A stretch of DNA of 64,000 bases. Source: a virus. The translations under genes and the position numbers were made by a program. The stretch spans positions 2,960-66,959 of the IMG/VR virus record IMGVR_UViG_3300050821_006606, one strand, 5' to 3'. Positions 6,905 to 29,048 of the stretch are shown here, piece by piece. A model generated the notes under the pieces. The model was not told where the DNA came from. It worked only from the letters and a program-made list of their open reading frames with translations, and searched no databases. Each line of letters starts with the position of its first letter. The stretch's first letter is position 1.

Positions 6905-7984
6905 TCAGGTGCCGGAAGTCAGGCCCAACGTCGACATCGCGGCCACATCATTGCCCTTGGCGGCCGGCTGGATGGTGGTCGTCGCGTCGGTGTTGCCAGC
7001 CTGGGTCGTGAAGTAGGCGATCTGGTAGCTTTCCACCGGTGGGGTGATCGCGGCGGAAGTGTTGTTCGCGAAATTCAGCGCCAGAGTGTTCGCCGCCGAG
7101 ATGCGCGCACCAGCCAGCATAAGTCCAGTCGTGACGCTCGGCTTGGTCACGATGACCTTACCACCAGAGACCAGGCCAGTGACGGTGAAGGTCTGCTCGG
7201 CGGAGGTGTTCGCGGCGACCGAGACGGGCGTCAGGGTTTGGTTGAACACATCCATGATCGGCGCCGGCTGGAAGCCACTGGCCGAGGCGAAGGTATAAGT
7301 CTCGGCCGCCGTCGGCGTGATGGTCGAGCCAGTCAGGTTTGAGAACTGGATCGCCACCTGGTTCGTGCCCGAAGCCCGGGCATTGGTGATGATCAGACCC
7401 GCCTGCGCCGTGGGCTTGTTGACGATCACTGTCTGACCAGCGCTGACACCGGTGACGGTGAAGTACTGCTCCGACACGGTGTTGGAGGCCACTGACGCGG
7501 GCGAGAGGATCGCCGTGGTCTGCAAAGCGGCACCAATCGCGATCGTCGCCCAGACCTGGGTGGAGGTCGGAGTGATCGCTGAGCCGGTCACGTTGCCGAG
7601 AGTAAGCTGAACGGTGTTCGCCGCGGAGACCCGCGCCGTGCCGACGATAAGGCCCGCCTGCGTGGTCGGTTTCACCATCGCCACCGCATCGGTCGCAAGC
7701 ACACCGGTCACGGTGATGGACTGCTCAGCCGAGGAATTGGCCGCGACACTCGCCGGCGAGATAGAGTTGCCGTACGTGGTCACGTTCGCGACGGTCGAGA
7801 ACATATTCCCGGCGGTGCCAGGCTGGACTTCCGGCGCCTGTCCGAAAAACCCGACCTTATCGACGGCCGACTTGCCAAGAGCGGTGCCTGGGCCGCCGCT
7901 AATGCCGTTGCCGTCCGAAAGCTGCCGGACATTGGAAGTCGTGGTGACCGTGCCAACCGTTACCGGTTCATTGCTGCCGCTCAT
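6905..7984 (-). CDS. Putative capsid decoration/virion protein with three tandem beta-domains
   Basis: Three repeats of P.SVA.N...EQ..TVTG..KP...GL....R.S..N...ITP; DKVGFFG motif; downstream of coat gene. Confidence 0.6.
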   Translation of the reverse strand: MSGSNEPVTVGTVTTTSNVRQLSDGNGISGGPGTALGKSAVDKVGFFGQAPEVQPGTAGNMFSTVANVTTYGNSISPASVAANSSAEQSITVTGVLATDAVAMVKPTTQAGLIVGTARVSAANTVQLTLGNVTGSAITPTSTQVWATIAIGAALQTTAILSPASVASNTVSEQYFTVTGVSAGQTVIVNKPTAQAGLIITNARASGTNQVAIQFSNLTGSTITPTAAETYTFASASGFQPAPIMDVFNQTLTPVSVAANTSAEQTFTVTGLVSGGKVIVTKPSVTTGLMLAGARISAANTLALNFANNTSAAITPPVESYQIAYFTTQAGNTDATTTIQPAAKGNDVAAMSTLGLTSGT

Positions 7985-8364: not shown

Positions 8365-8899
8365 CGCTCACCTCCAGCGAGTCGCGCTTCAGGTATTCGG
8401 TTAACCGGTCTTGCCCGATTGTTCGAAGCAAGATTTCGTAACCGCCGACCCGAACATTGCAAGCGTGGCACAACAACCCACGAACGATGCCCGTCTCGTG
8501 GCAATGATCGATCGGCCAGTTCGCAGAGTATCCGCCTGGTAGCCGCGCCTGTCGGCCATTGCTGTGCCTGTGACCATGCTCGGTGGCACCACAAAGAGCG
8601 CACGCATTGCCTTGCTCGGCCAGCAGTGTCTCGTACTGAGCGGGCGTGAGGCCGTACTTGTATTTGATGTCTGCGTTCCGCCGATGGATCGCCGCCCGCT
8701 CTGGGTTGGCTTTTTGCCATTTCGCTGAATTTGCTGCCGTCTTCGCCCGATAAGTCGGGTTGCTCGCATAGATGGCTCGCACGCGCGCTGATTCGCATGT
8801 CTTGCAAGCACCTCTGCGCCATCCCTTGGATTTGTTCGTCATCGTAAACGATGAAACTGGCAAATCCCGATGACATTTCGGGCACGCCCTGAGTTCCAT
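8300..8899 (-). CDS. Endonuclease VII-like free-standing homing endonuclease
   Basis: CPKC..CKTC; KYGLTPAQYETLLAEQGNACALC..IDHCHETGIVRGLLCHACN. Confidence 0.85.
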   Translation of the reverse strand: MELRACPKCHRDLPVSSFTMTNKSKGWRRGACKTCESARVRAIYASNPTYRAKTAANSAKWQKANPERAAIHRRNADIKYKYGLTPAQYETLLAEQGNACALCGATEHGHRHSNGRQARLPGGYSANWPIDHCHETGIVRGLLCHACNVRVGGYEILLRTIGQDRLTEYLKRDSLEVSDEPRATTLRAAPSAPLRPVRQ

Positions 8900-8962
8900 A
8901 TACTTCCCCCACTCGAAAAATCGCAGGGGAAGTATAAACAGAGCGGATAGGGATGTCGCGCA

Positions 8963-10147
8963 TCAGTTCGTCAACCTGACGCCCAAGGAATTATAGAACA
9001 TGGCCGTTCCAAATAATATGTCGATACGGCAAGGCGTAACGTCGTTCCACACGTCGTAAGCCCTGACGATGCGCATACTGATGTTGCGGAACATCTCCCG
9101 GGCCGCGAAGTCGACGCCGCCTGGCAGTTCCATGGGCACGACCACGAGGCCGAAGGCGTCGCGGCAGAAGCCTATGTTCTGGAAGTAAGTGGTGTTCGCC
9201 GAACCGACGACAGTGATCGCCGCGCCGTTGGCGGGTGAGGCCGTCACGTTCTGATAGGCACCAGTGGTCGTGATCGCCGGGAAGATTTGCAGGGTGGCGT
9301 TGCCGCCAACATCCGAAGCCGCCACCGCCGTAAGGGTGAATTGCTTCAGGGTGCCGGTCGAGAGGTAGTTTTGAGGGTTGACCTCATAAACGCCGGCCAT
9401 GGTGAAGACATCACCGACGTTCAGCAGGCCCGACCGCGAAGCCGTCCAGCCGTTGGTGATGATCGAAGACCCGGTTTGGTTCGCGCCATTGACGAGCGGC
9501 GTGCCGCTGTAATTGCCGACGGTCTGTGCCTGGATATTCTGATCCAGGTAGATTTCGAAGTTGGCGATCGCCGCCAGGAAGCCTTTCAGCGCTGGCTCAG
9601 CGACGGAACGGGTGAACAGGTTCGACACGCCATTCGCCAATGACCAGTAAGCCGCCGGGTTGAGGATCAGCACGCGGCCGTCCTGTGGTGCGGCGTTTTC
9701 GTCGAGGCGCTGCCCAACAGCGGCGATCGACGCGAAACTGGCCGGCGGAGTGCCGGGCGTTCCGACCTCGTTCGAAAGCTGGCTGTAGAGGGCCAGCACA
9801 TTGGTATCGATGGTGTTCGCCAGCGTTTCGGCCGCCGGCTTGCAGTACCGCTCGGAATACTCCTCGATCGTGAGGGTAAGTTCCTGCGAGGAAAACTGGA
9901 AATCGACGTGTGCCTGCGTCGAGATCGAGATCGACGTGGATGGCTCCGTGATGTCCTGGATTTGCAGCGCCGGACCGAGAGTGACCGTGAAGCGGTTCGG
10001 TTTGCGCACCGTAAGTGTAGTGCCAATCTTCACGAACTGATTCTCGAATTGGCGGTTGACTTTACCTGCCGCCACGAGATTATTGACCAATATTACAAGT
10101 GTTTCCTTAGTAATAAGGCTCGGAGTCAGAAGTGCATTGGCGGCCAT
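8963..10147 (-). CDS. Major capsid protein, P22 coat family
   Basis: MAANALLTPSLITKETLVILVNNL..KIGTTLTVRKPNRF..GDVFTMAGV..CRIDILFG. Confidence 0.92.
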   Translation of the reverse strand: MAANALLTPSLITKETLVILVNNLVAAGKVNRQFENQFVKIGTTLTVRKPNRFTVTLGPALQIQDITEPSTSISISTQAHVDFQFSSQELTLTIEEYSERYCKPAAETLANTIDTNVLALYSQLSNEVGTPGTPPASFASIAAVGQRLDENAAPQDGRVLILNPAAYWSLANGVSNLFTRSVAEPALKGFLAAIANFEIYLDQNIQAQTVGNYSGTPLVNGANQTGSSIITNGWTASRSGLLNVGDVFTMAGVYEVNPQNYLSTGTLKQFTLTAVAASDVGGNATLQIFPAITTTGAYQNVTASPANGAAITVVGSANTTYFQNIGFCRDAFGLVVVPMELPGGVDFAAREMFRNISMRIVRAYDVWNDVTPCRIDILFGTAMFYNSLGVRLTN

Positions 10148-11427: not shown

Positions 11428-12651
11428 TCAGTGAATTTGGCTTGGCGGGAAGAACGGCGCGCGCTCCTGGCGCAACGCCTTCATCCGTCGTTCGGCGTAA
11501 GTAGCCATGTCAGGCTCGGCATCGGTCGTGTCGGCGCGGTTTTCGGTCGTGTCGATCGGCTCGATTGGCGCCGGCCGCGCTCGTCTCGGAGGATTGGCGA
11601 TCCGTTCGGATATCCGGCCAAGCTCGATGAATTGTTCCGCGACGTTGGGCATTGAGGCGATGCGAACCGATTCCTCGGGATCCTGCGCCAATTGGTAGGC
11701 GATGTCCGGACCATTCTCGATCAGCAGGATCGCTGCCGCCATCGCATCGGTGATCGTAGGGCCGCCGTCGGCCGGCGCCTTCTTGGTCACCTCATCGAAG
11801 TCCGGGTATTTCTCGGTGGCCTTCTCGACCCTGGCGGTCCAGGTGTCATAGGTCTGCTTGACCGCTGCTTCATGCGCGACTCGCGCCTCTTCGTCAGCTT
11901 TGGCTTTGGCCTCAGCCTCTTCTGCTGCTTTCTTCTCGGCATCGACCCGGGCGGCTTCCGCTGCCACGGCTTCTTGCTCGCGGTGGGCTTCCCGTTTGCC
12001 CCAGGCGACCATCGCCTCATCGTAGAGGTCTGGATTATCGAACTCGTCCCTGGTCGGGCGAGGATCGGGCTTTGGCTCTTCCTTGGGAGCGGCGGCCTTC
12101 AGATCATCGAGGGTCTTCTGAGCCGCTTCGAGAGCTTCCCTGGCTTCCTTCGCCTCTTTGGCGGCGATGGCCGCTTTGCGGTTGGCCTCATTGACGGCCG
12201 TATCACGGGCGACATCGACGGCCTTCTGCCATGCCTCATCACCAACCTGTGCCCGAGCGGCTTTCCAGGCGGCGTCGGCGGCGTCCTGCGCTTTCTTGCG
12301 CTCCTTCTGGATCGAACGCACCGCATAGGATGGCAGATCATCCGGGATGGCGTCGAATTCGAGTTTGGGAGGCGTCTCCGGCTGATCATCCGGCTTGGCC
12401 TCGGTCTCAGGCTTGGCTGTCCCATCAGACTTGGGATCAGCGTCAGGCCCTGCCCCCTTCCTGGCGGCGGTCGCCGCTGCCAATTCTTCGGCCGTGATCT
12501 CCTTGGGCTTGCCTGCCGCTATGTCAGCCGGATCATTCGAGGCGGATTCGGGTGGCGTTGCGACCGGTGCCAGGGGCTGGTCGGTCGTCGCCGACAGCGG
12601 GATCGCTGTGCGTTCGATGATGTCTGGAGCACGAGAAGCTGCAAGCGCCAT
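11428..12651 (-). CDS. Capsid scaffolding protein
   Basis: Acidic coiled-coil; P.RDEFD..YDEAM..W; EKYPDFDEV; GPDIAYQLAQDPEE..RIA; APIEPI; upstream of coat. Confidence 0.85.
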   Translation of the reverse strand: MALAASRAPDIIERTAIPLSATTDQPLAPVATPPESASNDPADIAAGKPKEITAEELAAATAARKGAGPDADPKSDGTAKPETEAKPDDQPETPPKLEFDAIPDDLPSYAVRSIQKERKKAQDAADAAWKAARAQVGDEAWQKAVDVARDTAVNEANRKAAIAAKEAKEAREALEAAQKTLDDLKAAAPKEEPKPDPRPTRDEFDNPDLYDEAMVAWGKREAHREQEAVAAEAARVDAEKKAAEEAEAKAKADEEARVAHEAAVKQTYDTWTARVEKATEKYPDFDEVTKKAPADGGPTITDAMAAAILLIENGPDIAYQLAQDPEESVRIASMPNVAEQFIELGRISERIANPPRRARPAPIEPIDTTENRADTTDAEPDMATYAERRMKALRQERAPFFPPSQIH

Positions 12652-12686
12652 GGGCGAGAGAAATCCCGATCAGATTGGATTCTGTC

Positions 12687-12709
12687 ACCCGTGGAGGCGC
12701 TTCACGGTC
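12687..12709 (-). promoter_or_regulatory. Head-gene leader hairpin motif (scaffold copy)
   Basis: GACCGTG AAGCGCCTC CACGGGT, 36 nt before ATG. Confidence 0.7.
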
Positions 12710-12723
12710 AGCTTTCAAAGCGT

Positions 12724-12785
12724 GGTCTAACTCAATGGATTCTATGTCGTCAAGTCTTGCGATTGAGAGCGGCTGTGATATAGCT
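12724..12785. promoter_or_regulatory. Divergent promoters (scaffold leftward, tRNA cassette rightward)
   Basis: Minus TTGACG-18-TAGACC; plus TTGCGA..TGATATAGC. Confidence 0.4.
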
Positions 12786-12795
12786 CGCTCGCTGG

Positions 12796-12872
12796 TGCGG
12801 GATAGAGCAGTCCGGTAGCTCGCTTGGCTCATAACCAAGAGGTCGTCGGTTCAAATCCGGCTCTCGCTACCA
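12796..12872 (+). tRNA. tRNA-Met(CAT), initiator-like
   Basis: Cloverleaf: TGCGGGA/TCTCGCT with 1:72 mismatch, GAGC..GCTC D arm, CTTGG-CTCATAA-CCAAG, GGTTCAAATCC, encoded CCA. Confidence 0.92.
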
Positions 12873-12874
12873 GC

Positions 12875-13063
12875 GATCGCGATGGCGTTGATGGGTCGGC
12901 TATACGCCCTTGGTTAGCCGCACGGGATCAAGGGGAAGGCCGGCCCTAGCCGGGTGGAGCAAGGGGCCTGAAGTACTGTTACCGATAACAGCAGGACATG
13001 CATCGGGTTCTGCATTCGGCCCTAAGCAGCAGTGGGACCGGGAGTCTAAACCGGGTCGCGATT
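12875..13063 (+). ncRNA. Unknown structured ncRNA between two tRNAs
   Basis: 9-bp terminal stem, at least 5 internal stems and an 8-bp pseudoknot; fills the inter-tRNA spacer. Confidence 0.65.
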
Positions 13064-13065
13064 AT

Positions 13066-13141
13066 GCCGACGTAGCTCAATAGGTAGAGCGACTGCTTTG
13101 TAAGCTGTGGGTTAGGGGTTCAATTCCTCTCGTCGGCTCCA
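13066..13141 (+). tRNA. tRNA-Thr(TGT)
   Basis: GCCGACG/CGTCGGC acceptor, GCTC/GAGC D arm, anticodon loop TTTGTAA, GGTTCAATTCC, CCA. Confidence 0.92.
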
Positions 13142-13145
13142 CTTT

Positions 13146-16100
13146 CTACTGCTGGAACACCAGATAGGTCTGATTCTGGATCGTCTCCACGGTCATGAGC
13201 GCGGTCAGTTGCGCCGCCGAGTAGCCGAACACGAGGACACCGGGCCCATCGTTCGCGCTGGCAGTGATGAAGGCGAAGGAAGCTCCGGCGAAGTTCACAT
13301 CCCGGATAACCCAACCAGACCCTTGTGGCACGTCCACGGTCAGTTTGAATGTGCCGGGATCCGGAGTGATCGCATTGAAACTGATCAGTGTCAGGGCGTT
13401 CATGAGCACTTCGATCGACAGCGGCGCGTGGATACCATCACCCTTGCCGATAGTGGTGCCACCGGCCTGAGCTACCGCGAAATCCCGGAACATGGTAGGA
13501 TTGGCGTCGAAGATGGCCTGCGCCCCGGACAAAGGCACGTTCAGCCCGCCACTCAGTTGATTGATGGTGATGGTGCCCTTGCCGGTGAGTTCGATAATCG
13601 TCTTGCCGGTGTATTCGAACCCCTGGCCGCTGTCCTGCGAGGCATCCCAATATGTGAAAGAGGTCTTGGACCCGTCCGAGTTCGGTGCGAGCATCGGCTT
13701 AAATACGATGGTTGACCCCTGAAAACAGCCATAAACGAGACTGTTATTCTCCTGGGGAGTGCCGCTGGACGCGCTTGGCTCCAATTTCAGCCGCACAGCA
13801 CCGGTCGCCTGGCGCATATCGAAGGTGCCTGACTGGTAGTTATTGAAGTCGTAAGAGCCGCCCGCGGTGATGATCTCATTGAGAGTGGTCACTGTATCTG
13901 CTCCTAAGCTGTTGGTTTGAACCGTATGATCCGGCGTCATCGTCAGGTTGGAGTCCACATCCTCCGCGACAATGGCGAAGTGCTCCAATGTATTCACCGG
14001 AAGATGGGCCATGACGGCGCTGTGCGCCGTGCCGAACAGATTTTCTATGTCAGAGTACCGGAAGTACGCCGTGCTCGATCCGAACCTCACATATCCCAGC
14101 GAAGGTTTGTCGGTCGTCCAGTTGACCCGCGCATCGGTGCCGTCGATCAGGGATAATGTCACATTGCTGATCACCGGCGGCGTCGTGTCCGTGGGCGGTG
14201 GCGGAAGATGAGGCAGCAATTGGGTCGGGAAATAGACCGATTCCTCCTGCACCCGCTCCGTCGCCAGTTGCAGATCACGCCCGGTCACCTCTGGACGCGC
14301 GACGGAGCCGCCTAACCCGTTCCGAACGAAGTTGCTTATCTGGTTGAGCGGCAGAGTCACCATCGCGTCGAACTGCACAACCCCTGGAATGGTCGAATAG
14401 CCACTACCGCGAAGCGCGGCCTGAGCGGACCGGGCGCTGAACGGAAATTCAGGGATGGTGCCCCAGTTATCCCAATAGGCGCCAAGCCTGTTTTGGATCG
14501 GCCAAACGTCCGTGTTCAGGTAATTGCCGGACCACGGTATGTCGGATGGCACCCCAAACCTGTAGAATTTAGGCGCGCTATCTCCAAATCCGTGCACCAG
14601 CAATCGAGCTTCATTCTTGTCGATCGCGAGCGCCCATGGGTAATGACCAGGGTCAATTCCATAATTGCTCGATGGTTCACTTCGGGTGCCGTCCGCGGAG
14701 ATGCGGGTCATGGTGCGATTGTCGCCACCCGTATCGCAATTCACGAAAACATCGTCGATCGGCCCGATGTTGCCATTGCGATCGACATCGATCCAAGTCC
14801 AGCCCGCGCCACACAGGCCGCTGGCGATCAGCGTCACAGCGTTCGTGGTCAGGTCCATGTGCTTGATATTGCCGGCGGTCAACTCGTCAATGATCAGATT
14901 GGTGTGCGAGTCGAAGCGGACCGCGAACGGCTGGCTCAATCCTTGTGCCGCGCCGGCGATGGTGCTTACCGTGCTGCCATCCGGAGAAATCATGCGGATG
15001 CTGTTGTTGTCGTAATCCGCTACATACATCGTGCCATCCGAGCGCACCACGATGCTGTTTGGACCGCCGAATTGCGCCGTCAGGGCTGGACCATCGACAT
15101 TGCCTTGGATGCCGGGAACCCCTGCGTATGTCGTGATGTTCGGTGGGCTGACCGAGAAATCGACCTTGGCGATACGCGCGTTCGATTGGTCGGCCACGTA
15201 CAGGATACTGCTGTTCCTCGGATCGAAGGCAAGGTCCGTGGGCTCGTTAAAACCGACACCATTGAAATTCCCGATCGTGGTGAACTGAAGGGCATCCCGG
15301 TCCGACTGTGTGACGTTGGAATCCCAGATGGAGTAAGGCACAACGGATTTAATTGTCTGGCGACCCGCGATCGTGACCACCGAACCGTCCATGTTGAGTT
15401 GGAAGATGCGACCAGCTAGATCGATACCTACAAAGCCTCGCGCGGTGGGATTCGGGACATAGGTGCTGTAGGGCGACACGATGTTGTCATCACGCGATCC
15501 GTCGATCGCGGGCCGCATCAGAACACCGGGCAGGGCGATGTCGGAATCCGCTCCGGCCTCTGGGTCCATGGTCTCAAACAGAAGGCGACCGGCCTTCGTG
15601 CGAGCGATCTGAAGCCCGGTCTGCTCAAGGGTCACATTGGATTGGGTAAGGGATTCTTCCGTGAAGTACGGGCCAAGGCCCTGGTCCGACAGATTTCGCG
15701 AACTGGCCGGTGCGCTCACAGGTGAGGTATAAGATGTCGTGGTCGCGGGATGCGGCCATGTATAACCGGTGGTCCAGAACCGCCACTCCGGGATATCCGT
15801 TCGGCCCCAGTTGCGTATAACACCAGAGCCGACACTCGGCAGCAGTTGCGGGCCTGTGTTGGGTGTCGGATTGTTCCCGACAAGGAATGTGACCGCCGTC
15901 GGCACGTCTTTCGTAGTGTCGCCACTGCCGTCGACCAGGATCACCGAAGCGACGTGCGCGCCATCCGGTACGGTGGTGGAGTCCCAGGTGAACGCGTAGG
16001 GCGAGGTCAATCTTCCGCTCACCGGCTTGCCGTCGATCGTGTAGATCAGCGTGACACTGGGATCGATATTGCTGAGAAGATCGTCTTCGTAACTGAAATG

Positions 16101-16298
16101 CCGGCGCGCGCTTATAGCGACCAAGCCGGCGACCTCGCTGTAATTAGTGTCCGCCGAAGTCAGTGTCGGATAGATGCCTCCCCCATTTACTGGGTCCGTA
16201 TTCGTGGGAAAGATGCCGGGCGACACATACGGCTCGATCTGTGCCGCGGCTGGGAATGCACCGAGTAAAATAGCTGTGACCAGGGCAAATCCGCGCAT
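13146..16298 (-). CDS. Large signal-peptide protein with Ig-like, NHL-repeat and FN3-like domains
   Basis: MRGFALVTAILLGAFPAAA-Q; SPYAFTWDSTTVPDGAH (Ig-like); PTDLAFD..LYVADQSNARI, MYVADYDNNSIR (NHL); DTTPPVIS..VNWTTDKP (FN3-like). Confidence 0.75.
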   Translation of the reverse strand: MRGFALVTAILLGAFPAAAQIEPYVSPGIFPTNTDPVNGGGIYPTLTSADTNYSEVAGLVAISARRHFSYEDDLLSNIDPSVTLIYTIDGKPVSGRLTSPYAFTWDSTTVPDGAHVASVILVDGSGDTTKDVPTAVTFLVGNNPTPNTGPQLLPSVGSGVIRNWGRTDIPEWRFWTTGYTWPHPATTTSYTSPVSAPASSRNLSDQGLGPYFTEESLTQSNVTLEQTGLQIARTKAGRLLFETMDPEAGADSDIALPGVLMRPAIDGSRDDNIVSPYSTYVPNPTARGFVGIDLAGRIFQLNMDGSVVTIAGRQTIKSVVPYSIWDSNVTQSDRDALQFTTIGNFNGVGFNEPTDLAFDPRNSSILYVADQSNARIAKVDFSVSPPNITTYAGVPGIQGNVDGPALTAQFGGPNSIVVRSDGTMYVADYDNNSIRMISPDGSTVSTIAGAAQGLSQPFAVRFDSHTNLIIDELTAGNIKHMDLTTNAVTLIASGLCGAGWTWIDVDRNGNIGPIDDVFVNCDTGGDNRTMTRISADGTRSEPSSNYGIDPGHYPWALAIDKNEARLLVHGFGDSAPKFYRFGVPSDIPWSGNYLNTDVWPIQNRLGAYWDNWGTIPEFPFSARSAQAALRGSGYSTIPGVVQFDAMVTLPLNQISNFVRNGLGGSVARPEVTGRDLQLATERVQEESVYFPTQLLPHLPPPPTDTTPPVISNVTLSLIDGTDARVNWTTDKPSLGYVRFGSSTAYFRYSDIENLFGTAHSAVMAHLPVNTLEHFAIVAEDVDSNLTMTPDHTVQTNSLGADTVTTLNEIITAGGSYDFNNYQSGTFDMRQATGAVRLKLEPSASSGTPQENNSLVYGCFQGSTIVFKPMLAPNSDGSKTSFTYWDASQDSGQGFEYTGKTIIELTGKGTITINQLSGGLNVPLSGAQAIFDANPTMFRDFAVAQAGGTTIGKGDGIHAPLSIEVLMNALTLISFNAITPDPGTFKLTVDVPQGSGWVIRDVNFAGASFAFITASANDGPGVLVFGYSAAQLTALMTVETIQNQTYLVFQQ

Positions 16299-18036: not shown

Positions 18037-18913
18037 TATTGGACCGTCGCGGTTGCCGAGACTGCCTTACCGTCTTTGTCCCGATTCAGGGATACCATCC
18101 TCGGCGCGCGGATTGCCTGATCAAGCGTTTCGGTCCATTGCTTCATGTTGGTCATCAAACTTTCATGGCCGCCAGCGAGCGTCTTCATTTGCTCGGCTTG
18201 GCTCTGAGTCTGCCGGTCCAACGTCGCGGCGACCTCAGTCAGCGCGCCCTTGTGCTCTCCCTGAGACCCGCGCATGTCATCGACGAGCGAGGTTACCGCA
18301 TCAGCCATCGCCCGTATGACATCGGTGTTCTCTTGGAGAGAAGCGCGAAACTCTTCGACTTTCTCCGTGTTGGCCTTCAGCGCTTCACTCAGGCTCCATA
18401 GGCCAGCGATCATGTTCGGCGGGATCGTCAGCATCAGCGCCGGGCCGTGATCAGTGTCCTCTTTGAGAGCGGCCTTGGTCTCTTTCTCGGCGCGGGCAGG
18501 CGAAACCGGCTCTTCGTCGACAATCTCGTGATGAACCGGCGACCATCCGTCGTTCATGTGTACTCCGTCACCTTCGTTGGCGGCGCCACTCGATTATATC
18601 GCATATATTGGGCACTCGGCAGAAATGCGAACCCACGTTGATCATTGAGTTCTTCAGGAGTGATCCCATGGATCATGATCGCTTCATCCTGCGGGTAAAA
18701 ACCTCTGGCGATATAATACTGTTCAAGCTCAATGTTTTGCATCGCCGCCAAAGAAAGATAGGCCCTCACTGGCGGTGGGTCTTTCGCGACTGTCACGGAG
18801 ACCCCTCTGTTTTCGAGATGCTTCGCGACATCCTCACGGACCATCACGATGCCGAGGTGCGTCCCGGTTGTATCGACCAGTTTGAACCATGCGCCTGATA
18901 GCCGTCCGCTCAT
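18036..18913 (-). other. Two hypothetical ORFs following portal (18036-18557 coiled-coil; 18554-18913)
   Basis: Translationally coupled; C-terminal RDKDGKAV motif in first. Confidence 0.6.
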
Positions 18914-21348
18914 GCCGCCCTCTGTGGCTTGCCATCCTGCCCGAGCGTCCACCGCTGGCCATTGGCGAAGCGGGTTATGCGGCCGGGCTTGAGATGCTGC
19001 AAGGCTTCTGGGGGCAGCGCTCCGGCCTCCTGGGGCTGACTTGGCGCTTGAGGCGCCGAACTTGGACCTTCGGCCGGCATACTTGGAGCATTCGGCGCTG
19101 TCCCGGCAGCTTGGCTCGCGCCGCCAGTGTCGTTCGCCGGTTCCTGTCCTTGGTTTTCCAGCACGTGCACGAGACCGGTCGTCTCCTCGCCCAATTCGTT
19201 TATCTGGGAGGCGATATGCGTATTGAAATTCGCGTTAGCCTTCTGGTTGATCGCGGCCATTTTGGTCTCGGTATCCGAGATGACCTTCAGCAAAGCCGCT
19301 TCGAACCGCTTTTCGATATCATCGTGTTTGATCGCGCGATCGGCGTTCTTGTCCTGCAACGCGGCCATGGCCTGCCGTAGCTGCTCGGAAAGCTGCTTGA
19401 TCGCGTTCTCCTGCCCCTGAAGGATCGCCTGCACCTGGGGCGTGACATCCTTCATATCCGGCGACATGAGTTGCGGTGGGATGGTCTTCGCGAGCCGAGC
19501 AGCGATTTGCTCCGCACCTGGCCAATCTTGCGCCTGCGCGAACAGATCGACCACCAGAGCGGCGGTCTGCGGCAGCGCTTTCATGAAGGCCATCATATTT
19601 TCAGATGCTTCGATCCGCTTCGTCGCGTAGGATGGCCCGATCGTCACCGTGACGCCGTAGCGCCCGTAGGTCGGGTTGTAGAGTTTGCGGACCTTCCCAT
19701 CCGGCCGGCGCTCCTCCCCAGAGGCCCGGTTCATGTTCGGATCGATCTTGACCTGTTCCTCTTTCTCGTCCTCGCGCAAGATCGTGAGCACCCGCGGCTC
19801 ATCGTAAACTTTGGGGATCAGTTCGACCATGATCTCCCCAGCGCGCTTCAGCGAGCGAGCGAGGTTGTCGATGTAGTGGAATGCTCCGATATCGCCCGAG
19901 CGGCGAAGTTCCCGGATCGCCTTCCCGGACTCGTCGATCATCCGCTCGTTCATCGTGGCGTCGAACCGGATCCCGGTCGTCGCCATCATGTCCTGCGCTG
20001 CCCCAGCGATCGCCGCCTCAATACCCGCCGGAATGCCCGCCATGGGCTGACGCTGCGGCGGAGGCGCCGGATGACCGGCTACCGAGGTGCCCTTGTAGGA
20101 CAGATATGGGATGTTCTTGACGTTCGCGTTTTTGAACTCGTCCTCGTGGCCCTCGATCTGGCCCTCTTCCACCACCCAAGGCGACTTCGGCTGAAGCGCG
20201 ATCAGTTCTGTCTCGGCCGTCTTCCAGTAGTTAAACATCCGCTGTGGGTCTTTCGCGTTGCGGATGATACCGGACAGCTTAGATTTACCCTCAACGTCGG
20301 TTTCCTCACCAATAACTTTAACTACTGGTATAGTAGAACCCAGCCATTCACGCTCCATGAGGACATCGGTCGCGGTCACCTTGTACCACATGACCTTGGG
20401 CACCCGGCTCTCGCGCTCATCGACTACTTTCACTCGATTGCGCTTAATCTTGGCCTTCACAATATCGTCGAGTTCGTCCTTCCACCCGACATGCCCATTG
20501 TCGAGCTTCACAAGTATTTTGGTGTCGTACTCGATCTCGAAATACTCAGCGATCCGGATTTCGTCTTTAGATGCCCAGGTTGACATCTTCTCGCCAATAC
20601 CGGCGTCCGTGTAGGGCATCTCCGGGACATCCGGATATTTCTCTTTGAACTCGTCCCGCGTGATCATCTCCGTGACGAACGCATATTTGGCGTCCGCACC
20701 GGTCGGATCTTGGTGCGCAGGATCGAGGTAGACCGTGAAGGCATTCCGGATGCGCCGCACAACCAGCACGAGATTGAAGCTGTCCGGAGCTTCCCATTCA
20801 GTGAGGATGCGAAAAAATCCCCAACCCATTGTCACGGCATCGTCAAAAGCCGTGTCATAAGCGATGTCCGCCGAGCAATCCCGCTCGATGAACCGGATCA
20901 TGCCGCGGTAGAGTTTGGCGACATCACTATCGCCTCGATCGCCCACCGGAGAAATGTTGATCGCCGGCCGGTTCTGGCGCTGATCGTTCACGATCTGATG
21001 TATGAACGTCGGCAGCTTATTGATTGTTAAACATGGCCTTTTGTCGATATTTCGTTGCGCCATTATCGCGGTCGGCCACTGTTCGCCAACCCGGAATAGC
21101 TTGTCGTCCAGACCGGACTTCCGCATCTCGCTCTCGGAAGAAATGCATTTTTCCATTCTTTTTCGAATTCGATCGAGCAACTTCGCCTTTTTGGCTTCGG
21201 CTCCCTCAGGAGCTTTGTTGCTCAGTCTGACAATGCCCTTGTCGTCGAAATTGGACAGATCGCGAGGCGCGACCTTAACCATGGCGCTATCAGTTGGCGG
21301 CATACGCACGCGCCCGGAATCCGGCGCGCGAAGGGGACTATCGGCCAT
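18910..21348 (-). CDS. Portal protein, P22-like
   Basis: GEQWP..RPCLTINKLP..NDQRQNRP..GIIRNAKDPQRMFNYW..SGKAI..GPSYATKR. Confidence 0.92.
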   Translation of the reverse strand: MADSPLRAPDSGRVRMPPTDSAMVKVAPRDLSNFDDKGIVRLSNKAPEGAEAKKAKLLDRIRKRMEKCISSESEMRKSGLDDKLFRVGEQWPTAIMAQRNIDKRPCLTINKLPTFIHQIVNDQRQNRPAINISPVGDRGDSDVAKLYRGMIRFIERDCSADIAYDTAFDDAVTMGWGFFRILTEWEAPDSFNLVLVVRRIRNAFTVYLDPAHQDPTGADAKYAFVTEMITRDEFKEKYPDVPEMPYTDAGIGEKMSTWASKDEIRIAEYFEIEYDTKILVKLDNGHVGWKDELDDIVKAKIKRNRVKVVDERESRVPKVMWYKVTATDVLMEREWLGSTIPVVKVIGEETDVEGKSKLSGIIRNAKDPQRMFNYWKTAETELIALQPKSPWVVEEGQIEGHEDEFKNANVKNIPYLSYKGTSVAGHPAPPPQRQPMAGIPAGIEAAIAGAAQDMMATTGIRFDATMNERMIDESGKAIRELRRSGDIGAFHYIDNLARSLKRAGEIMVELIPKVYDEPRVLTILREDEKEEQVKIDPNMNRASGEERRPDGKVRKLYNPTYGRYGVTVTIGPSYATKRIEASENMMAFMKALPQTAALVVDLFAQAQDWPGAEQIAARLAKTIPPQLMSPDMKDVTPQVQAILQGQENAIKQLSEQLRQAMAALQDKNADRAIKHDDIEKRFEAALLKVISDTETKMAAINQKANANFNTHIASQINELGEETTGLVHVLENQGQEPANDTGGASQAAGTAPNAPSMPAEGPSSAPQAPSQPQEAGALPPEALQHLKPGRITRFANGQRWTLGQDGKPQRAA

Positions 21349-26470: not shown

Positions 26471-26558
26471 CTGGCTTCTGTCCCTTGGGAAACCACAATA
26501 TATGCAATACCCAGTCTGATCCACAACGCACCATGAGTTGCACGACTCTGTGCGGCGT

Positions 26559-27230
26559 TTAGGCGGCAACACAGCGAAGACGATACCTTTCCCGCAAGGC
26601 CGCTCGACTTTGTTCGAGGTTCGCATAATAGTGCGCTGCGGCACGAAGGCGGTTACATTCCTTACATTCACCTCCCTGTCTATTTCTCGTGCTGGTCGAG
26701 CGGCGCATGATGTTGTCTTCGATATAGGGATGGCCGCATTTGAATTGCGTTTTCGGCGGCTTCGGAGGCCGCGCCAGCCTTGCTTGGCGTTGTTTTTCCA
26801 GATTCCTTGTCTGATAGATACCGTCGCATATACGACAAAGGCGACGGCCGCGGCCTTCGCGTCCAGGTTTGCGAATAGTATTCTCTTCTGAATATGGGTG
26901 CCCGGCTTTGCAATGGGTTTTCGCGAGTTGGCGCTGCGCTGCCGTCTTGCCAGTATTCCCTCGCCGGATGTTAATCTTGCGAGTCACGGCCTCCAGATGA
27001 GCCGGATTTACGCAGCATCGGACCCTACAAAGATGGTCCAGTTCAAGACCCTCCGGAATTGGCCCTGTAAATAGACGATAAGCCACTCGATGAGCCAATT
27101 CTTGCTTGCCAGCGTCATCTGCGATGAATCCGTAGCCGGTCTGCCATGACCATGCGCCGGCCCACAACCAGCATCCGGAATTTGGCTCCGGGATGTACTT
27201 CGCCTCAAATCGTTCCAGCAGAGTGGCCAT
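26559..27230 (-). CDS. HNH homing endonuclease with C-terminal CxxGH zinc-ribbon repeats
   Basis: SGCWLWAG..GYG..AHRVAY..GPIPEGLELDHLCRVRCCVNPAHLEAVT..N; THCKAGHPY, FKCGHPY. Confidence 0.88.
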   Translation of the reverse strand: MATLLERFEAKYIPEPNSGCWLWAGAWSWQTGYGFIADDAGKQELAHRVAYRLFTGPIPEGLELDHLCRVRCCVNPAHLEAVTRKINIRRGNTGKTAAQRQLAKTHCKAGHPYSEENTIRKPGREGRGRRLCRICDGIYQTRNLEKQRQARLARPPKPPKTQFKCGHPYIEDNIMRRSTSTRNRQGGECKECNRLRAAAHYYANLEQSRAALRERYRLRCVAA

Positions 27231-27413
27231 AGTCTTTTATAAAGACTGCTTTTGTGTCGGCCGACCATACGTGTTGACGGCCTTAATTTGAGGAATGTCG
27301 GCCTTCTGCATTCCTTTATTGATGCCGGAGCCACGGATCGAGCCCTGGTCGCGCTCCATGGTGGGTTTTGTCGAGTTCGGGCCGGGAGAGGGAGATTTCA
27401 TGGGTGTGCTCCG

Positions 27414-29048
27414 TCAGTTCATGGGATGCGTGCTGGTCGTCACCCTGCCGTCGTAAAGCTGGTGACTGAGGTCGTTAAGCAATCCGGCGATCATCATGAC
27501 CGGCAATCCAGCGGTATCGATGGTCTGGACATCCTCGCAGTACCGCCCGTCCTCGCTCACCGTGAAGGTAATCGTCAGGGCGTAACTCTTGCCGGCGATG
27601 ACGGTGCCTTCGTTCACCGCTGTCTCGGCGGCGTCATCTGAGCGGATAGCCGCGGCGTGCCGCCCTTCGTGAAGTTCCGGTTGAACGCTTCGTCCGGCTT
27701 CACCGGTTCCGGCATCTTCATGGCGCCCTTGCGCTTCGGCTTGTGAGCGGCCTTCTTCTTGCCCGGGTGCATCTCGATCGAGGGTGTCAGCACGGCGTTT
27801 TTCATGGGTCGATTCCCTATCAGTCGAGGCGACCTTACCCCTCGTTCTTGCTGAGACGCCAGATGGCCTCGACGGCGATCATGATTTCGCGCTGTTCGTC
27901 CTCAAGCAACGCACCACGGCAGGAGATTTCCTGTTTCCCGAGCCATTCCCGATCGTAGGCGGCGAAGCTGATATCGCTCAGCCGCTTGCCACATGGCTTC
28001 TCGCCGTTGTTTTTATTCGTGCACCGGCCATCCGGCCCGAAGTTGTGGAGCGCGATGCTCATCCACCAATGCGCCTCGGATCGCCAAAGCCGATTTTAAC
28101 CGGGAATGGCGCCTTTTCCTTGGGAACACTATCCAGAGCCTTTCGCATTTGCTCGCGCGCTCCGGACATCACCTTGCCGTCGATCACGTCGCCGATCGCC
28201 CGGTGAAAGTTCTCGTGCACTGGGTCTGGCACGGCCTGTTTGACCGGTCCCGCAGTGGTCTCCACCGTCTCAGTCGGCCCGATGTAATCGCGTTTGCCTT
28301 GGTCGTTGACGCGCATCAGTGCGTCAGACAGGCTTGCGATCGTCTCTGCGTCATGGCCGCGCAGGATCTCCATTGCCGCTGCCTCGCCTTCCAGGCCCTC
28401 GATCCGATCGCGCTGGGTCAAGTTCTCCATGCGCAGCCGGCGGATTTCATTTCCGGCTTCAATCGCGTCAGCCCGAGCCGCATTGCGTTCATCATATAAC
28501 CGCCGTGCGGTTTCATGCAGTGAGTCGACGCGAAGTTGGAGGCGTTGGAACGTGTCTGTAGCTTCGGCCAGCACTGGCGCAAGTCCATCCGGCGCGAGCG
28601 CCGCCATCGCGCGGTAGATCATTGTAACATCTGATGCCTTGAAATCATCTTCGCCAGCCTGGAAAGCCGCCATTCCAGCCTCAACCATCTGCGCCGTCAC
28701 AGGCTGGCACTCCGGGTCGGCCAGCATGGCCTCCGCTTCGCGCTGGCGGACTGTCTGAGGATCAACAACAATCGTCCAGTCGGCAGAAGCTTCGACCTTC
28801 TTGATCGTCGTGCCGCCCGCCTCGTTGTGCCGGAGAAGCTCGCCATTCGGATAACAAATCTTTGTGATCACGCCCTGTTCATTGGTTTCAAGGCGGCCCA
28901 TGCCATGTTTGGCTGCCTCAGCGGCGATGCCCTTGCTGTCCGCTGGCCAAATGGCGAGCATTGCATTGAGCGCTCTAACGGAGGTGGCGTCTTCCTTAGC
29001 AGAATCTATCCGTTTCATTGCTTCCTGAATTATCTGATCCGCTGTCAT
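27414..29048 (-). other. Hypothetical ORFs (27414-27617, 27614-27805 basic, 27835-28062, 28059-29048 coiled-coil)
   Basis: Coupled same-strand ORFs. Confidence 0.55.

What the first reader, a model, noticed from the sequence alone, without database searches (positions are those of the whole stretch)
12875..13063. Unknown ~190-nt pseudoknotted RNA sandwiched between two tRNAs
Seen: closing stem GATCGCGAT/GTCGCGATT. Hairpin CGGCTA/TAGCCG (12897-12920) has a loop CCCTTGGT that pairs with ATCAAGGG (12927-34), with an alternative partner CAAGGG at 12960. Further stems are CCGGC/GCCGG, bulged CCTG-aagta-CTGTTA/TAACAG-CAGG, ATGCA/TGCAT and CCGG/CCGG. The element fills the spacer to within 2 nt of each tRNA, so tRNA processing would release it. 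Known: large phage ncRNAs (GOLLD, ROOL) often lie among tRNAs. I cannot assign a family; the topology loosely recalls the raiA motif.
Basis: partly seen in the sequence, partly recalled or inferred. Interest (0 to 1): 0.85.

Follow-up and report, generated by a model that had tools for sequence, protein, structure and literature searches.

The report
New structured phage RNA between tRNAs
The 193-base spacer between two phage tRNA genes is a real, conserved, folded RNA of a family not yet catalogued, found in soil RNA libraries, but its function is still unknown.

Summary
The two tRNAs (Met-CAT 12796-12872, Thr-TGT 13066-13141) and the 193-nt spacer are as described. The spacer matches no Rfam 15 family at E<=10.

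Its fold is only moderately unusual on its own: z -2.7, a value that 4 of 186 control windows of the same genome also reach.

A 19-mer scan of IMG/VR found a homolog in two other phage contigs, where the two copies are identical. It scores 58 bits and covers the full length. The window and the homolog share four helices around one junction:
- P1 and P3 keep pairing through 9 double (compensatory) changes.
- The junction strands and the whole P4 hairpin are invariant.
- The homolog has no tRNAs nearby. It follows an ORF and precedes a terminator-like hairpin.

Contigs from three soil metatranscriptome runs carry the window's element with 0 differences, joined to tRNA-Met.

A nested P2 helix is conserved instead.

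Best reading: a new family of free-standing phage ncRNA. It is matured by tRNA processing here and from a 3' UTR plus terminator elsewhere. Its conserved junction core is probably a binding site.

The family rests on only two distinct sequences. No further member turned up in the searches I could run.

The parts
12796..12872 (+). tRNA-Met (anticodon CAT) with its CCA end encoded; upstream partner in the same transcription unit
   Evidence: ARAGORN; Rfam tRNA 61.4 bits. RNA-library contigs run from inside this tRNA into the element without a break.
12873..13065 (+). The whole structured RNA element (193 nt), member of an uncatalogued phage RNA family
   Evidence: Strand-specific fold. No Rfam match. 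Homolog at 58 bits over the full length. 28 shared pairs, 100% paired in both sequences.
12875..12883 (+). P1, 5' strand (pairs with 13055-13063)
   Evidence: 9 pairs kept in both sequences; 5 changed on both sides and 3 on one side.
12884..12892 (+). J1/2 linker GGCGUUGAU; UUGAU is invariant
   Evidence: CM alignment of the window and L231.
12893..12946 (+). P2 domain: outer helix 12893-12901/12938-12946, inner helix 12907-12915/12926-12934. The base of P2 (CGGC/GCCG core) is conserved and the distal part is variable.
   Evidence: Pair probabilities 0.99 and 0.96. 6 P2 pairs are shared with L231, 2 of them changed on one side.
12947..12962 (+). J2/3 strand. CGGGUGGAGC (12951-12960) is invariant and is followed by R-A.
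   Evidence: RNAalifold pairs it irregularly with J3/4.
12963..12968 (+). P3, 5' strand GGGGCC (pairs with 13018-13023)
   Evidence: 6 pairs kept; 4 changed on both sides and 1 on one side.
12969..13017 (+). Variable distal part of the P3 domain. In the window it holds the hairpins CUGUUA/UAACAG and AUGCA/UGCAU, which are not alignable with the homolog's 71 nt.
   Evidence: The ensemble is ambiguous here, with pair probabilities 0.3-0.5.
13018..13023 (+). P3, 3' strand GGCCCU
13024..13037 (+). J3/4 strand AAGC-R-GCAGUGGGA, invariant except for one purine
13038..13054 (+). P4 hairpin CCGG-GAGUCUAAA-CCGG, identical in both sequences. It abuts the P1 3' strand with no linker.
   Evidence: Pair probability 0.96. 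The 19-mer seed taken here found the homologs. The depth-37 RNA contig ends at 13054.
13055..13063 (+). P1, 3' strand
13066..13141 (+). tRNA-Thr (anticodon TGT). RNase P cleavage at its 5' end would set the element's 3' end (inferred).
   Evidence: ARAGORN; Rfam tRNA 66.7 bits.

Best explanation
The spacer is a gene for a free-standing structured RNA of a phage-borne family that is not yet catalogued.

Structure: four helices (P1-P4) meet at one junction. The helices can change sequence as long as they still pair. The junction strands (UUGAU, CGGGUGGAGC, AAGC-R-GCAGUGGGA) and the whole P4 hairpin are fixed, so they most likely form the working surface: a binding site for a host or phage protein, RNA or small ligand.

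Biogenesis in this phage (inferred from textbook bacterial tRNA processing): the RNA is transcribed on the + strand together with tRNA-Met and tRNA-Thr, antisense to the head-gene operon. RNase P cutting at the 5' end of tRNA-Thr sets its 3' end. Its 5' end depends on 3' processing of tRNA-Met, which may be slow, so a tRNA-Met-plus-element species may persist.

Biogenesis in the other phages: the same RNA sits just after an ORF and ends at a terminator-like hairpin, like a 3'-UTR-derived small RNA.

Shown: conservation, covarying helices, strand, presence in RNA libraries.
Inferred: processing route, action in trans, binding role.
For: 1. No known family. Rfam 15 gives no match at E<=10 for the window element or the homolog.
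2. Homolog. L231 6982-7181 (+) and the identical copy in L230 score 58 bits, E 1.8e-13, over model positions 1-193. Loci picked by other exact 19-mers scored at most 11.4 bits with the same model (10 metagenome loci) or gave no match at E<=10 (L232).
3. Covariation. 28 shared pairs are 100% paired in both sequences. 9 pairs changed on both sides (5 in P1, 4 in P3). With the 3' partners slid by 1-3 columns, 0-2 such pairs remain and 25-56% of cells pair. RNAalifold finds the same helices on its own.
4. Pattern of conservation. 78 of 122 aligned columns are identical, concentrated in the junction strands and P4.
5. Strand. The + strand folds with z -2.72 and the - strand with z -0.16. The homolog lies on the strand of its flanking ORFs and is followed on that strand by a 12-bp GC hairpin and UUUCUAU (read by eye).
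6. RNA. Contigs from three soil metatranscriptome runs cover 12810-13054 (depth 37), 12805-13032 and 12805-12964 with 0 differences.
7. Not coding. Only 20-57-aa frames exist, mostly with TTG starts and overlapping the tRNAs.
8. Not a tRNA relic. The best local score against 43 tRNAs (40 from relatives, 3 from the window) is 22, against a mean of 22.3 for a shuffled spacer.
9. No conserved neighbour or shared protein near the element between the two kinds of phage. This fits an RNA that works with host factors or alone.
Against: - The family has only two distinct sequences, so covariation cannot be tested statistically. The alignment was also fitted to the model's structure.
- The homolog's own fold is not unusual: z -1.43, with 21 of 200 shuffles as good.
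- The window's z is matched by 4 of 186 control windows and by 9 of 24 other tRNA spacers.
- 80 loci and 48 whole records of the closest phage relatives lack the element, so it is dispensable for this phage group.
- RNA evidence comes from contigs only. They give no strand, ends or level, and the three studies share a year and a habitat, so they may be one campaign.
- The contigs join the element to tRNA-Met, so release as a separate RNA is not shown.
- No promoter or terminator consensus was found around the cassette.
- No partner or target was identified. The longest exact match to the rest of the phage is 11 nt, which is chance level.
Confidence: 0.6

Rival explanations
1. A tRNA-like processing module. 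P1 stacked on P4 mimics the acceptor/T-arm minihelix, so RNase P or another tRNA-processing enzyme cuts at the element's 5' edge. This makes the 3' end of whatever lies upstream: tRNA-Met here, an mRNA in the other phages. It could alternatively act as a decoy for tRNA-targeting host defences.
For: - Four-way junction in which P4 abuts the 3' strand of P1 with no linker in both sequences, giving 13-14 stacked pairs.
- The element begins 2-4 nt after the end of the upstream feature in both contexts.
- It sits in a tRNA cassette in the window.
- Recalled precedents: mascRNA/MALAT1 3'-end formation by RNase P, and phage tRNAs that counter anticodon nucleases.
Against: - No tRNA or tmRNA signal in the spacer from ARAGORN or the Rfam tRNA clan at E<=10.
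- The P4 loop has 9 nt and lacks the T-loop consensus.
- The junction linkers are 9, 16 and 14 nt, against 2, 1 and 4-5 in a tRNA.
- There is no CCA after P1.
- RNA-library contigs run uncut across the tRNA-Met/element border.
Confidence: 0.12
2. A new class of self-cleaving ribozyme. It cuts at its own 5' edge and so trims the 3' end of the upstream tRNA or mRNA, as theta (HDV-like) ribozymes are proposed to do for phage tRNAs.
For: - Invariant junction core flanked by freely covarying helices.
- It starts within 2-4 nt of the upstream tRNA 3' end or stop codon.
- Precedent: 1753 theta ribozymes with cleavage sites adjacent to phage tRNAs (PMC10879173, abstract read).
Against: - No match to any Rfam ribozyme family at E<=10.
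- P1 pairs the two termini, which is not the HDV-like nested double pseudoknot.
- The contigs in three RNA libraries are continuous across the presumed cleavage site.
- 193-200 nt is large for a small self-cleaver.
Confidence: 0.08
3. A cis-acting regulator (riboswitch or attenuator). The junction core binds a ligand and controls read-through into the downstream gene.
For: In L231 the element is followed directly by a 12-bp GC hairpin plus U-rich tail, then a ribosome-binding site and a 72-aa ORF 41 nt further on. That layout resembles an aptamer plus expression platform.
Against: - In the window there is no hairpin and no downstream ORF on that strand. tRNA-Thr starts 2 nt after P1, and 4 nt beyond its end a convergent gene ends.
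- I found no convincing anti-terminator pairing in L231 by eye.
- The element sits right after an ORF stop codon, with no room for a promoter of its own.
Confidence: 0.07
4. A non-functional spacer, a decayed tRNA pair or a miniature mobile element with 9-bp terminal inverted repeats. Its stems exist by chance in GC-rich DNA.
For: - A z of -2.7 is reached by 4 of 186 control windows.
- The same site in relatives is a variable tRNA island holding 1, 10 or 26 tRNAs.
- In another scan, 57 of 81 tRNA pairs with the same spacing had further tRNAs between them.
- The element is absent from 48 related whole records.
Against: - A homolog in unrelated phages has 9 compensatory pair changes and invariant junction strands.
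- No similarity to tRNAs.
- One copy per genome: one in the window's record, none in the 10 candidate host genomes apart from two partial matches that I rejected, and none in 401 Pseudomonadota genomes.
- Present in RNA libraries.
Confidence: 0.05

Closest known systems
Bacteriophage T4 'species 1' and 'species 2' stable RNAs (recalled from memory; my paper search, listed no paper about them)
   Same: Small stable RNAs of unknown function, encoded inside a phage tRNA gene cluster, co-transcribed with the tRNAs and released by the host's tRNA-processing enzymes.
   Different: The present family also occurs away from tRNAs, after an ORF. T4 infects enterobacteria; these are soil phage contigs with about 0.54-0.62 GC.
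Theta (minimal HDV-like) ribozymes next to phage tRNAs (PMC10879173, abstract and outline read)
   Same: A structured RNA placed directly at the 3' end of a phage tRNA, proposed to take part in tRNA maturation.
   Different: Theta ribozymes are described as minimal HDV-like ribozymes, which fold as a double pseudoknot. This element is 193-200 nt, closes with a terminal P1 around a four-way junction, and matches no Rfam ribozyme model. Self-cleavage is untested.
GOLLD and ROOL large ornate RNAs (PMC5737381, passages read; PMC12286853, search listing and start of abstract)
   Same: Phage- or prophage-associated structured RNAs of unknown function. GOLLD is often located near tRNAs.
   Different: [quoted passage not shown] This RNA is a third of that size and has one junction. 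There was no covariance-model match.
raiA motif RNA (PMC5737381, passages read)
   Same: I recall raiA as being of similar length, about 200 nt. Both are multi-stem RNAs that tend to sit close to the upstream same-strand gene, and neither behaves like a classical cis regulator.
   Different: raiA is found in Firmicutes and Actinobacteria near raiA, PBP and comFC genes. Here there is no model match at E<=10, the setting is a phage, and the neighbours are different.
3'-UTR-derived and tRNA-spacer-derived bacterial small RNAs, such as 3'ETS-leuZ and CpxQ (recalled from memory)
   Same: Biogenesis that relies on an existing transcript: release from a tRNA operon spacer, or from an mRNA 3' UTR that ends at the mRNA's terminator.
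   Different: Those RNAs are short, weakly structured and act by base pairing. This one is about 200 nt, highly structured, with a conserved junction core and no detectable target complementarity in the phage.

Membership tests
Any Rfam 15 family (4227 models) | Match to the family covariance model | tested here: not met
   Window 12700-13250 at E<=10: only the two tRNAs and an antisense hit on tRNA-Thr. L231 6800-7400 at E<=10: only weak partial hits on the hairpin downstream of the element and one at 7288-7328.
raiA motif | Match to the raiA covariance model | tested here: not met
   No match at E<=10 in either member.
raiA motif | Occurrence in Firmicutes or Actinobacteria near raiA, PBP or comFC genes (PMC5737381) | tested here: not met
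   The setting is phage contigs. The neighbours are tRNAs and head genes, or an ORF with no Pfam or PHROG family and a 72-aa ORF of unknown function.
GOLLD / ROOL | Size of roughly 500-800 nt with many multistem junctions; model match | tested here: not met
   193-200 nt and one four-way junction. No model match.
HDV-like / theta ribozyme | Nested double-pseudoknot fold; match to an HDV-type model | tested here: not met
   No Rfam ribozyme match. The covarying P1 pairs the 5' and 3' termini.
HDV-like / theta ribozyme | Self-scission at the 5' edge, next to the tRNA 3' end | not testable with these tools
   This needs an in vitro cleavage assay. RNA-library contigs span the border uncut, which is weak evidence against efficient cleavage.
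tRNA / tRNA-like | Cloverleaf detected by tRNA models; T-loop and D-loop consensus | tested here: not met
   ARAGORN finds nothing in the spacer. The Rfam tRNA clan gives nothing at E<=10. No similarity to 43 tRNAs.
tRNA / tRNA-like | Four-way junction with the last arm stacked directly on the terminal stem | tested here: inconclusive
   P4 abuts the 3' strand of P1 with no linker in both members, but the linkers and loops are not tRNA-sized.
tmRNA | tRNA-like domain plus a tag reading frame | tested here: not met
   ARAGORN's tmRNA search of the window finds none. No Rfam tmRNA match.
Riboswitch / cis regulator | Aptamer followed by an expression platform and a regulated gene on the same strand | tested here: not met
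   In the window there is no hairpin and no downstream same-strand ORF; tRNA-Thr follows 2 nt after P1. L231 alone has such a layout.
T4 species 1/2 stable RNAs | Sequence or structure homology to the T4 RNAs | tested here: inconclusive
   BLAST of the element against 50,697 GenBank phage records gave no match beyond 21-38-nt chance hits. I did not check that the collection includes T4, and no structural comparison was made.
OMEGA / bridge-RNA type guide RNAs (TnpB, IscB, IS110) | Adjacent TnpB, IscB or IS110 recombinase gene | tested here: not met
   The 366-aa ORF upstream in L231 has no Pfam or PHROG family at E<=0.01. The window has tRNAs on both sides.

The most novel reading that the evidence does not exclude
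The element founds a new class of catalytic or tRNA-mimicking RNA. It acts on the RNA immediately upstream, either by cutting at its own 5' edge or by recruiting RNase P. Alternatively it decoys a tRNA-directed host defence. Phages move it as a cassette between tRNA islands and gene 3' ends.
Probability: 0.15. Interest if true: 0.8.

Novelty: new variant of a known kind. Interest (0 to 1): 0.55.

Why it matters
Phage genomes carry many tRNA islands whose spacers are usually ignored. This one holds an RNA with the marks of function: helices that covary, junction strands that do not change, and presence in environmental RNA. The same RNA has been placed in two different "delivery" contexts, a tRNA operon and an mRNA 3' end with a terminator-like hairpin. 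That shows one way phages may express a stable RNA without a dedicated promoter and terminator. If the conserved core binds a host factor or acts on tRNA or mRNA ends, it would add a new tool to the short list of phage-encoded structured RNAs with a known role. The evidence now rests on two sequences, so the first value of the finding is as a seed model for a proper database search.

Tried and rejected
**Homolog searches that found nothing**
- nhmmer and blastn of the spacer against 85 fetched loci.
- BLAST against 48 whole records of coat-gene relatives: only two 14-nt matches.
- GenBank phages and plasmids.
- Metagenome scan with the tRNA-anchored pattern: 0 matches.
- Metagenome scan with a 19-mer from J1/2: 10 loci, all chance matches of 19-21 nt.
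- A 27-nt core pattern with up to 3 mismatches in 401 Pseudomonadota genomes: 0 matches.
- Model R2 over about 2.15 Mb of held loci: only the three known copies.

**Weak model hits that I rejected**
- L010/L089 15898-15998: 23 bits, inside a 267-aa ORF, P3 and P4 domains missing.
- G055 (24.8 bits) and G052 (16.9 bits): partial, GC-rich, no tRNAs nearby.
- L232: hit by another 19-mer but no model match.

**Loose tRNA-pair scan**
It gave 80 loci. 24 of the 81 matches have a tRNA-free gap of at least 120 nt, and none resembles this element.

**Other negatives**
- Antisense-target idea: no complementarity beyond 11 nt in the window.
- Small-protein idea: no plausible frame.
- Lay-reads: the RNA runs gave no contig on the flanking genes 12300-12770 and 13240-13700. 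The tool warns that a part without cover proves nothing. The DNA run X1 may be the source sample.

- Paper supplements were not opened. The supplementary motif lists of PMC5737381 and PMC10879173 could in principle contain this motif.
- A full-text search for the P4 motif found no paper.

Full report
**Setting**

The window is part of an IMG/VR virus record of 66,959 bases, estimated 83% complete, with about 0.59 GC. The finding lies in the head-gene region. All the surrounding genes are on the minus strand:
- a P22-type coat gene at 8963-10147 (Pfam E 2.6e-40);
- a head scaffolding gene at 11428-12651 (PHROG);
- a 1050-aa gene with NHL repeats at 13146-16298;
- a portal gene at 18910-21348.

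Between the scaffolding gene and the 1050-aa gene sits a small + strand cassette. It consists of tRNA-Met(CAT) at 12796-12872, a 193-nt spacer, and tRNA-Thr(TGT) at 13066-13141 (ARAGORN; Rfam tRNA 61.4 and 66.7 bits).

**Checking the observation**

The + strand folds to -82.7 kcal/mol with z -2.72, and 1 of 200 shuffles folds as well. The minus strand gives z -0.16.

This energy signal is modest. In my control of 186 same-length windows from the first 36.8 kb of the window (both strands, 25 shuffles each), 4 reached z <= -2.7. Among 24 tRNA-flanked spacers of 123-209 nt from other phages, 9 reached that value on the tRNA strand.

The ensemble has four firm helices:
- P1, 12875-83 with 13055-63, pair probability 0.93;
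- an outer P2 helix, 12893-901 with 12938-46, pair probability 0.99;
- an inner P2 helix, 12907-15 with 12926-34, pair probability 0.96;
- P4, 13038-41 with 13051-54, pair probability 0.96.

The middle of the molecule is ambiguous. Its nested stems reach at best -65.5 kcal/mol.

**What it is not**
- Not a known family. Rfam 15 gives nothing in the spacer at E<=10 with permissive filters.
- Not coding. There is no plausible reading frame.
- Not a tRNA relic. The best local score against 43 tRNAs is 22, against a mean of 22.3 for shuffled spacers.
- Not a repeat within the genome. There is one copy in the window's record.
- Not an obvious antisense regulator. Complementarity to the rest of the phage does not exceed 11 nt.

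**Relatives of the phage lack it**

The coat protein found 121 relatives in IMG/VR, of which the best 80 were kept. None has the element:
- not in the fetched loci;
- not in 48 whole records.

The same site in relatives, upstream of the scaffolding gene, is a variable tRNA island. L010 has one tRNA there, on the opposite strand, L012 has 10 and L011 has 26. The cassette therefore sits in a hot spot for tRNA gain and loss.

**Presence in RNA**

A word-index search found one DNA run holding the whole stretch, which may be the source sample. It also found three soil metatranscriptome runs holding 20-36% of the sampled words. I laid these four runs on 12300-13700. The RNA-library contigs matching with 0 differences cover:
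- 12810-13054 (245 nt, depth 37);
- 12805-13032 (228 nt);
- 12805-12964 (160 nt).

Each contig joins most of tRNA-Met to the element. The longest ends exactly at the last base of P4.

Contigs give no strand, ends or level. The three studies share a year and a habitat, so they may be one campaign. That the flanking genes had no RNA contig is not evidence, by the tool's own warning. What can be said is that the element exists in RNA libraries as one piece with tRNA-Met.

**The homolog**

After several empty scans, a 19-mer spanning the P4 hairpin hit two IMG/VR contigs. The single-sequence covariance model R1 scores both at 58 bits, E 1.8e-13, over its full length. Loci selected by other exact 19-mers scored at most 11.4 bits or gave no match at all (L232).

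The two copies are identical. They lie in a 2.3-kb module shared at 99% identity by two otherwise unrelated contigs, whose GC outside the module is 0.53 and 0.62. The family thus has two distinct sequences in three records.

**Comparative structure**

In the model-guided alignment, 78 of 122 aligned columns are identical.

The invariant parts are:
- UUGAU in J1/2;
- CGGGUGGAGC in J2/3;
- AAGC-R-GCAGUGGGA in J3/4;
- the entire P4 hairpin, CCGG-GAGUCUAAA-CCGG.

The helices differ between the two sequences but stay paired:
- All 28 shared pairs form in both.
- 9 pairs changed on both sides, 5 of 9 in P1 and 4 of 6 in P3.
- 7 more pairs changed on one side only.
- With the 3' partners slid by 1-3 columns, only 0-2 double changes remain and 25-56% of cells pair.

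RNAalifold recovers the same four helices. It also proposes an irregular pairing of the two invariant junction strands. P1 and P3 are anchored by invariant blocks on both sides, so their alignment is not in doubt.

The distal parts of the P2 and P3 domains are variable.

The nested P2 does.

With two sequences this cannot be a statistical covariation test. The homolog's own fold is also unremarkable (z -1.43).

**Context of the homolog**

In L231 the model match begins 2 nt after the stop codon of a 366-aa ORF. That ORF has no Pfam or PHROG family. A lysozyme/SLT-like fold is a weak lead only.

By eye, the match is followed by a 12-bp GC hairpin (7184-7211) and UUUCUAU. The consensus scan did not call this hairpin. 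A 72-aa ORF starts at 7260.

There is no tRNA within the 10.8-kb locus. No protein near the element is shared with the window's phage. Flanking tRNAs are therefore not a property of the family, and there is no conserved protein partner in cis.

**How it most likely works**

Shown: a conserved four-helix-junction RNA on a defined strand, present in RNA libraries, in two different genomic settings.

Inferred from established bacterial tRNA processing: in this phage, RNase P cleavage at tRNA-Thr sets the 3' end. The 5' end depends on 3' maturation of tRNA-Met, which encodes its CCA. The contigs that join the two suggest that this step is incomplete, or that a tRNA-Met-element species is itself stable.

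In the other phages the element looks like a 3'-UTR small RNA that ends at a terminator. The two settings share only this: each delivers a discrete, stable RNA. I therefore favour a free-standing RNA whose invariant junction and P4 loop bind a partner (0.6). The rivals are:
- a tRNA-like processing or decoy module (0.12);
- a self-cleaving ribozyme (0.08);
- a cis regulator (0.07);
- a non-functional spacer or mobile relic (0.05).

**Comparison with the known**

The closest in kind are the T4 species 1 and 2 stable RNAs inside its tRNA cluster. These are recalled from memory, and no paper about them was listed. Next come the theta ribozymes at phage tRNA 3' ends (PMC10879173, abstract read). 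GOLLD, ROOL and raiA (PMC5737381, passages read) are analogies only. The element fails the model-match test for every Rfam family. A full-text search for the P4 motif found no paper.

**Limits**

The further searches I could still run were negative:
- 401 Pseudomonadota genomes;
- GenBank phages and plasmids;
- about 2.15 Mb of held loci.

Paper supplements were not opened.

**Verdict**

This is a real and apparently new phage RNA family with a good structural signature and unknown function. Interest 0.55.

Noticed in passing
window 8801-8993 (minus strand): This was the most negative fold in my background control (z -5.1 with 25 shuffles; z -4.12 with 0 of 200 shuffles as good). A 14-bp perfect hairpin sits just downstream of the coat gene's stop, between it and the next minus-strand gene. 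It may be a terminator, an attenuator or an mRNA-stabilising hairpin after the major capsid gene.
   Followed up: partly
window 28608-28694 (minus strand): ARAGORN calls an 87-nt tRNA-Gly(TCC) here. Rfam's tRNA model does not reach its gathering score there, and the site lies inside a 329-aa ORF at 28059-29048. It is probably a false call.
   Followed up: no
L011 930-7496; L012 5991-7895; L010 8318-8391: In coat-gene relatives, the site upstream of the scaffolding gene holds 26, 10 or 1 tRNA genes, in either orientation. This is a hot spot of tRNA gain and loss within one phage group. L011 has tRNA-free gaps of 130-840 nt inside its array that I did not examine.
   Followed up: partly
L107 13685-13880; L161 1204-1412; L177 4206-4405; pairs L118/L152, L146/L180, L103/L120: Other spacers of about 180-210 nt between phage tRNAs fold far better than shuffles (z -4.7, -5.5 and -5.3). 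Three pairs of spacers from different contigs are 83-99% identical. They could be undetected tRNAs or further spacer RNAs. None resembles the present element.
   Followed up: no
G060 26536-28839 = G059 1-2304: A 2.3-kb module carrying the 366-aa ORF and the RNA element is 99% identical in two contigs that otherwise share almost nothing. The contigs differ in GC: module 0.595, remainders 0.62 and 0.53. This suggests recent exchange of a moron-like cassette. G059 ends 35 nt beyond the element, so the module's far edge is unknown.
   Followed up: partly
L231 7182-7214: The hairpin after the homolog is 94% identical over 33-34 nt to unannotated intergenic sequence in seven Ralstonia phage records. 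It may be a shared terminator, and it gives a weak hint to the host range of that phage.
   Followed up: no
L089 (genome contigs) and L010 (IMG/VR): The closest coat relative (90% identity) is an 88-kb contig that is also binned in a Verrucomicrobiia MAG. More distant relatives sit in long contigs of a Rhodanobacteraceae genome and a Paraburkholderia genome, which look like prophages. The host of the window's phage is therefore uncertain, though it is most likely a proteobacterium.
   Followed up: no
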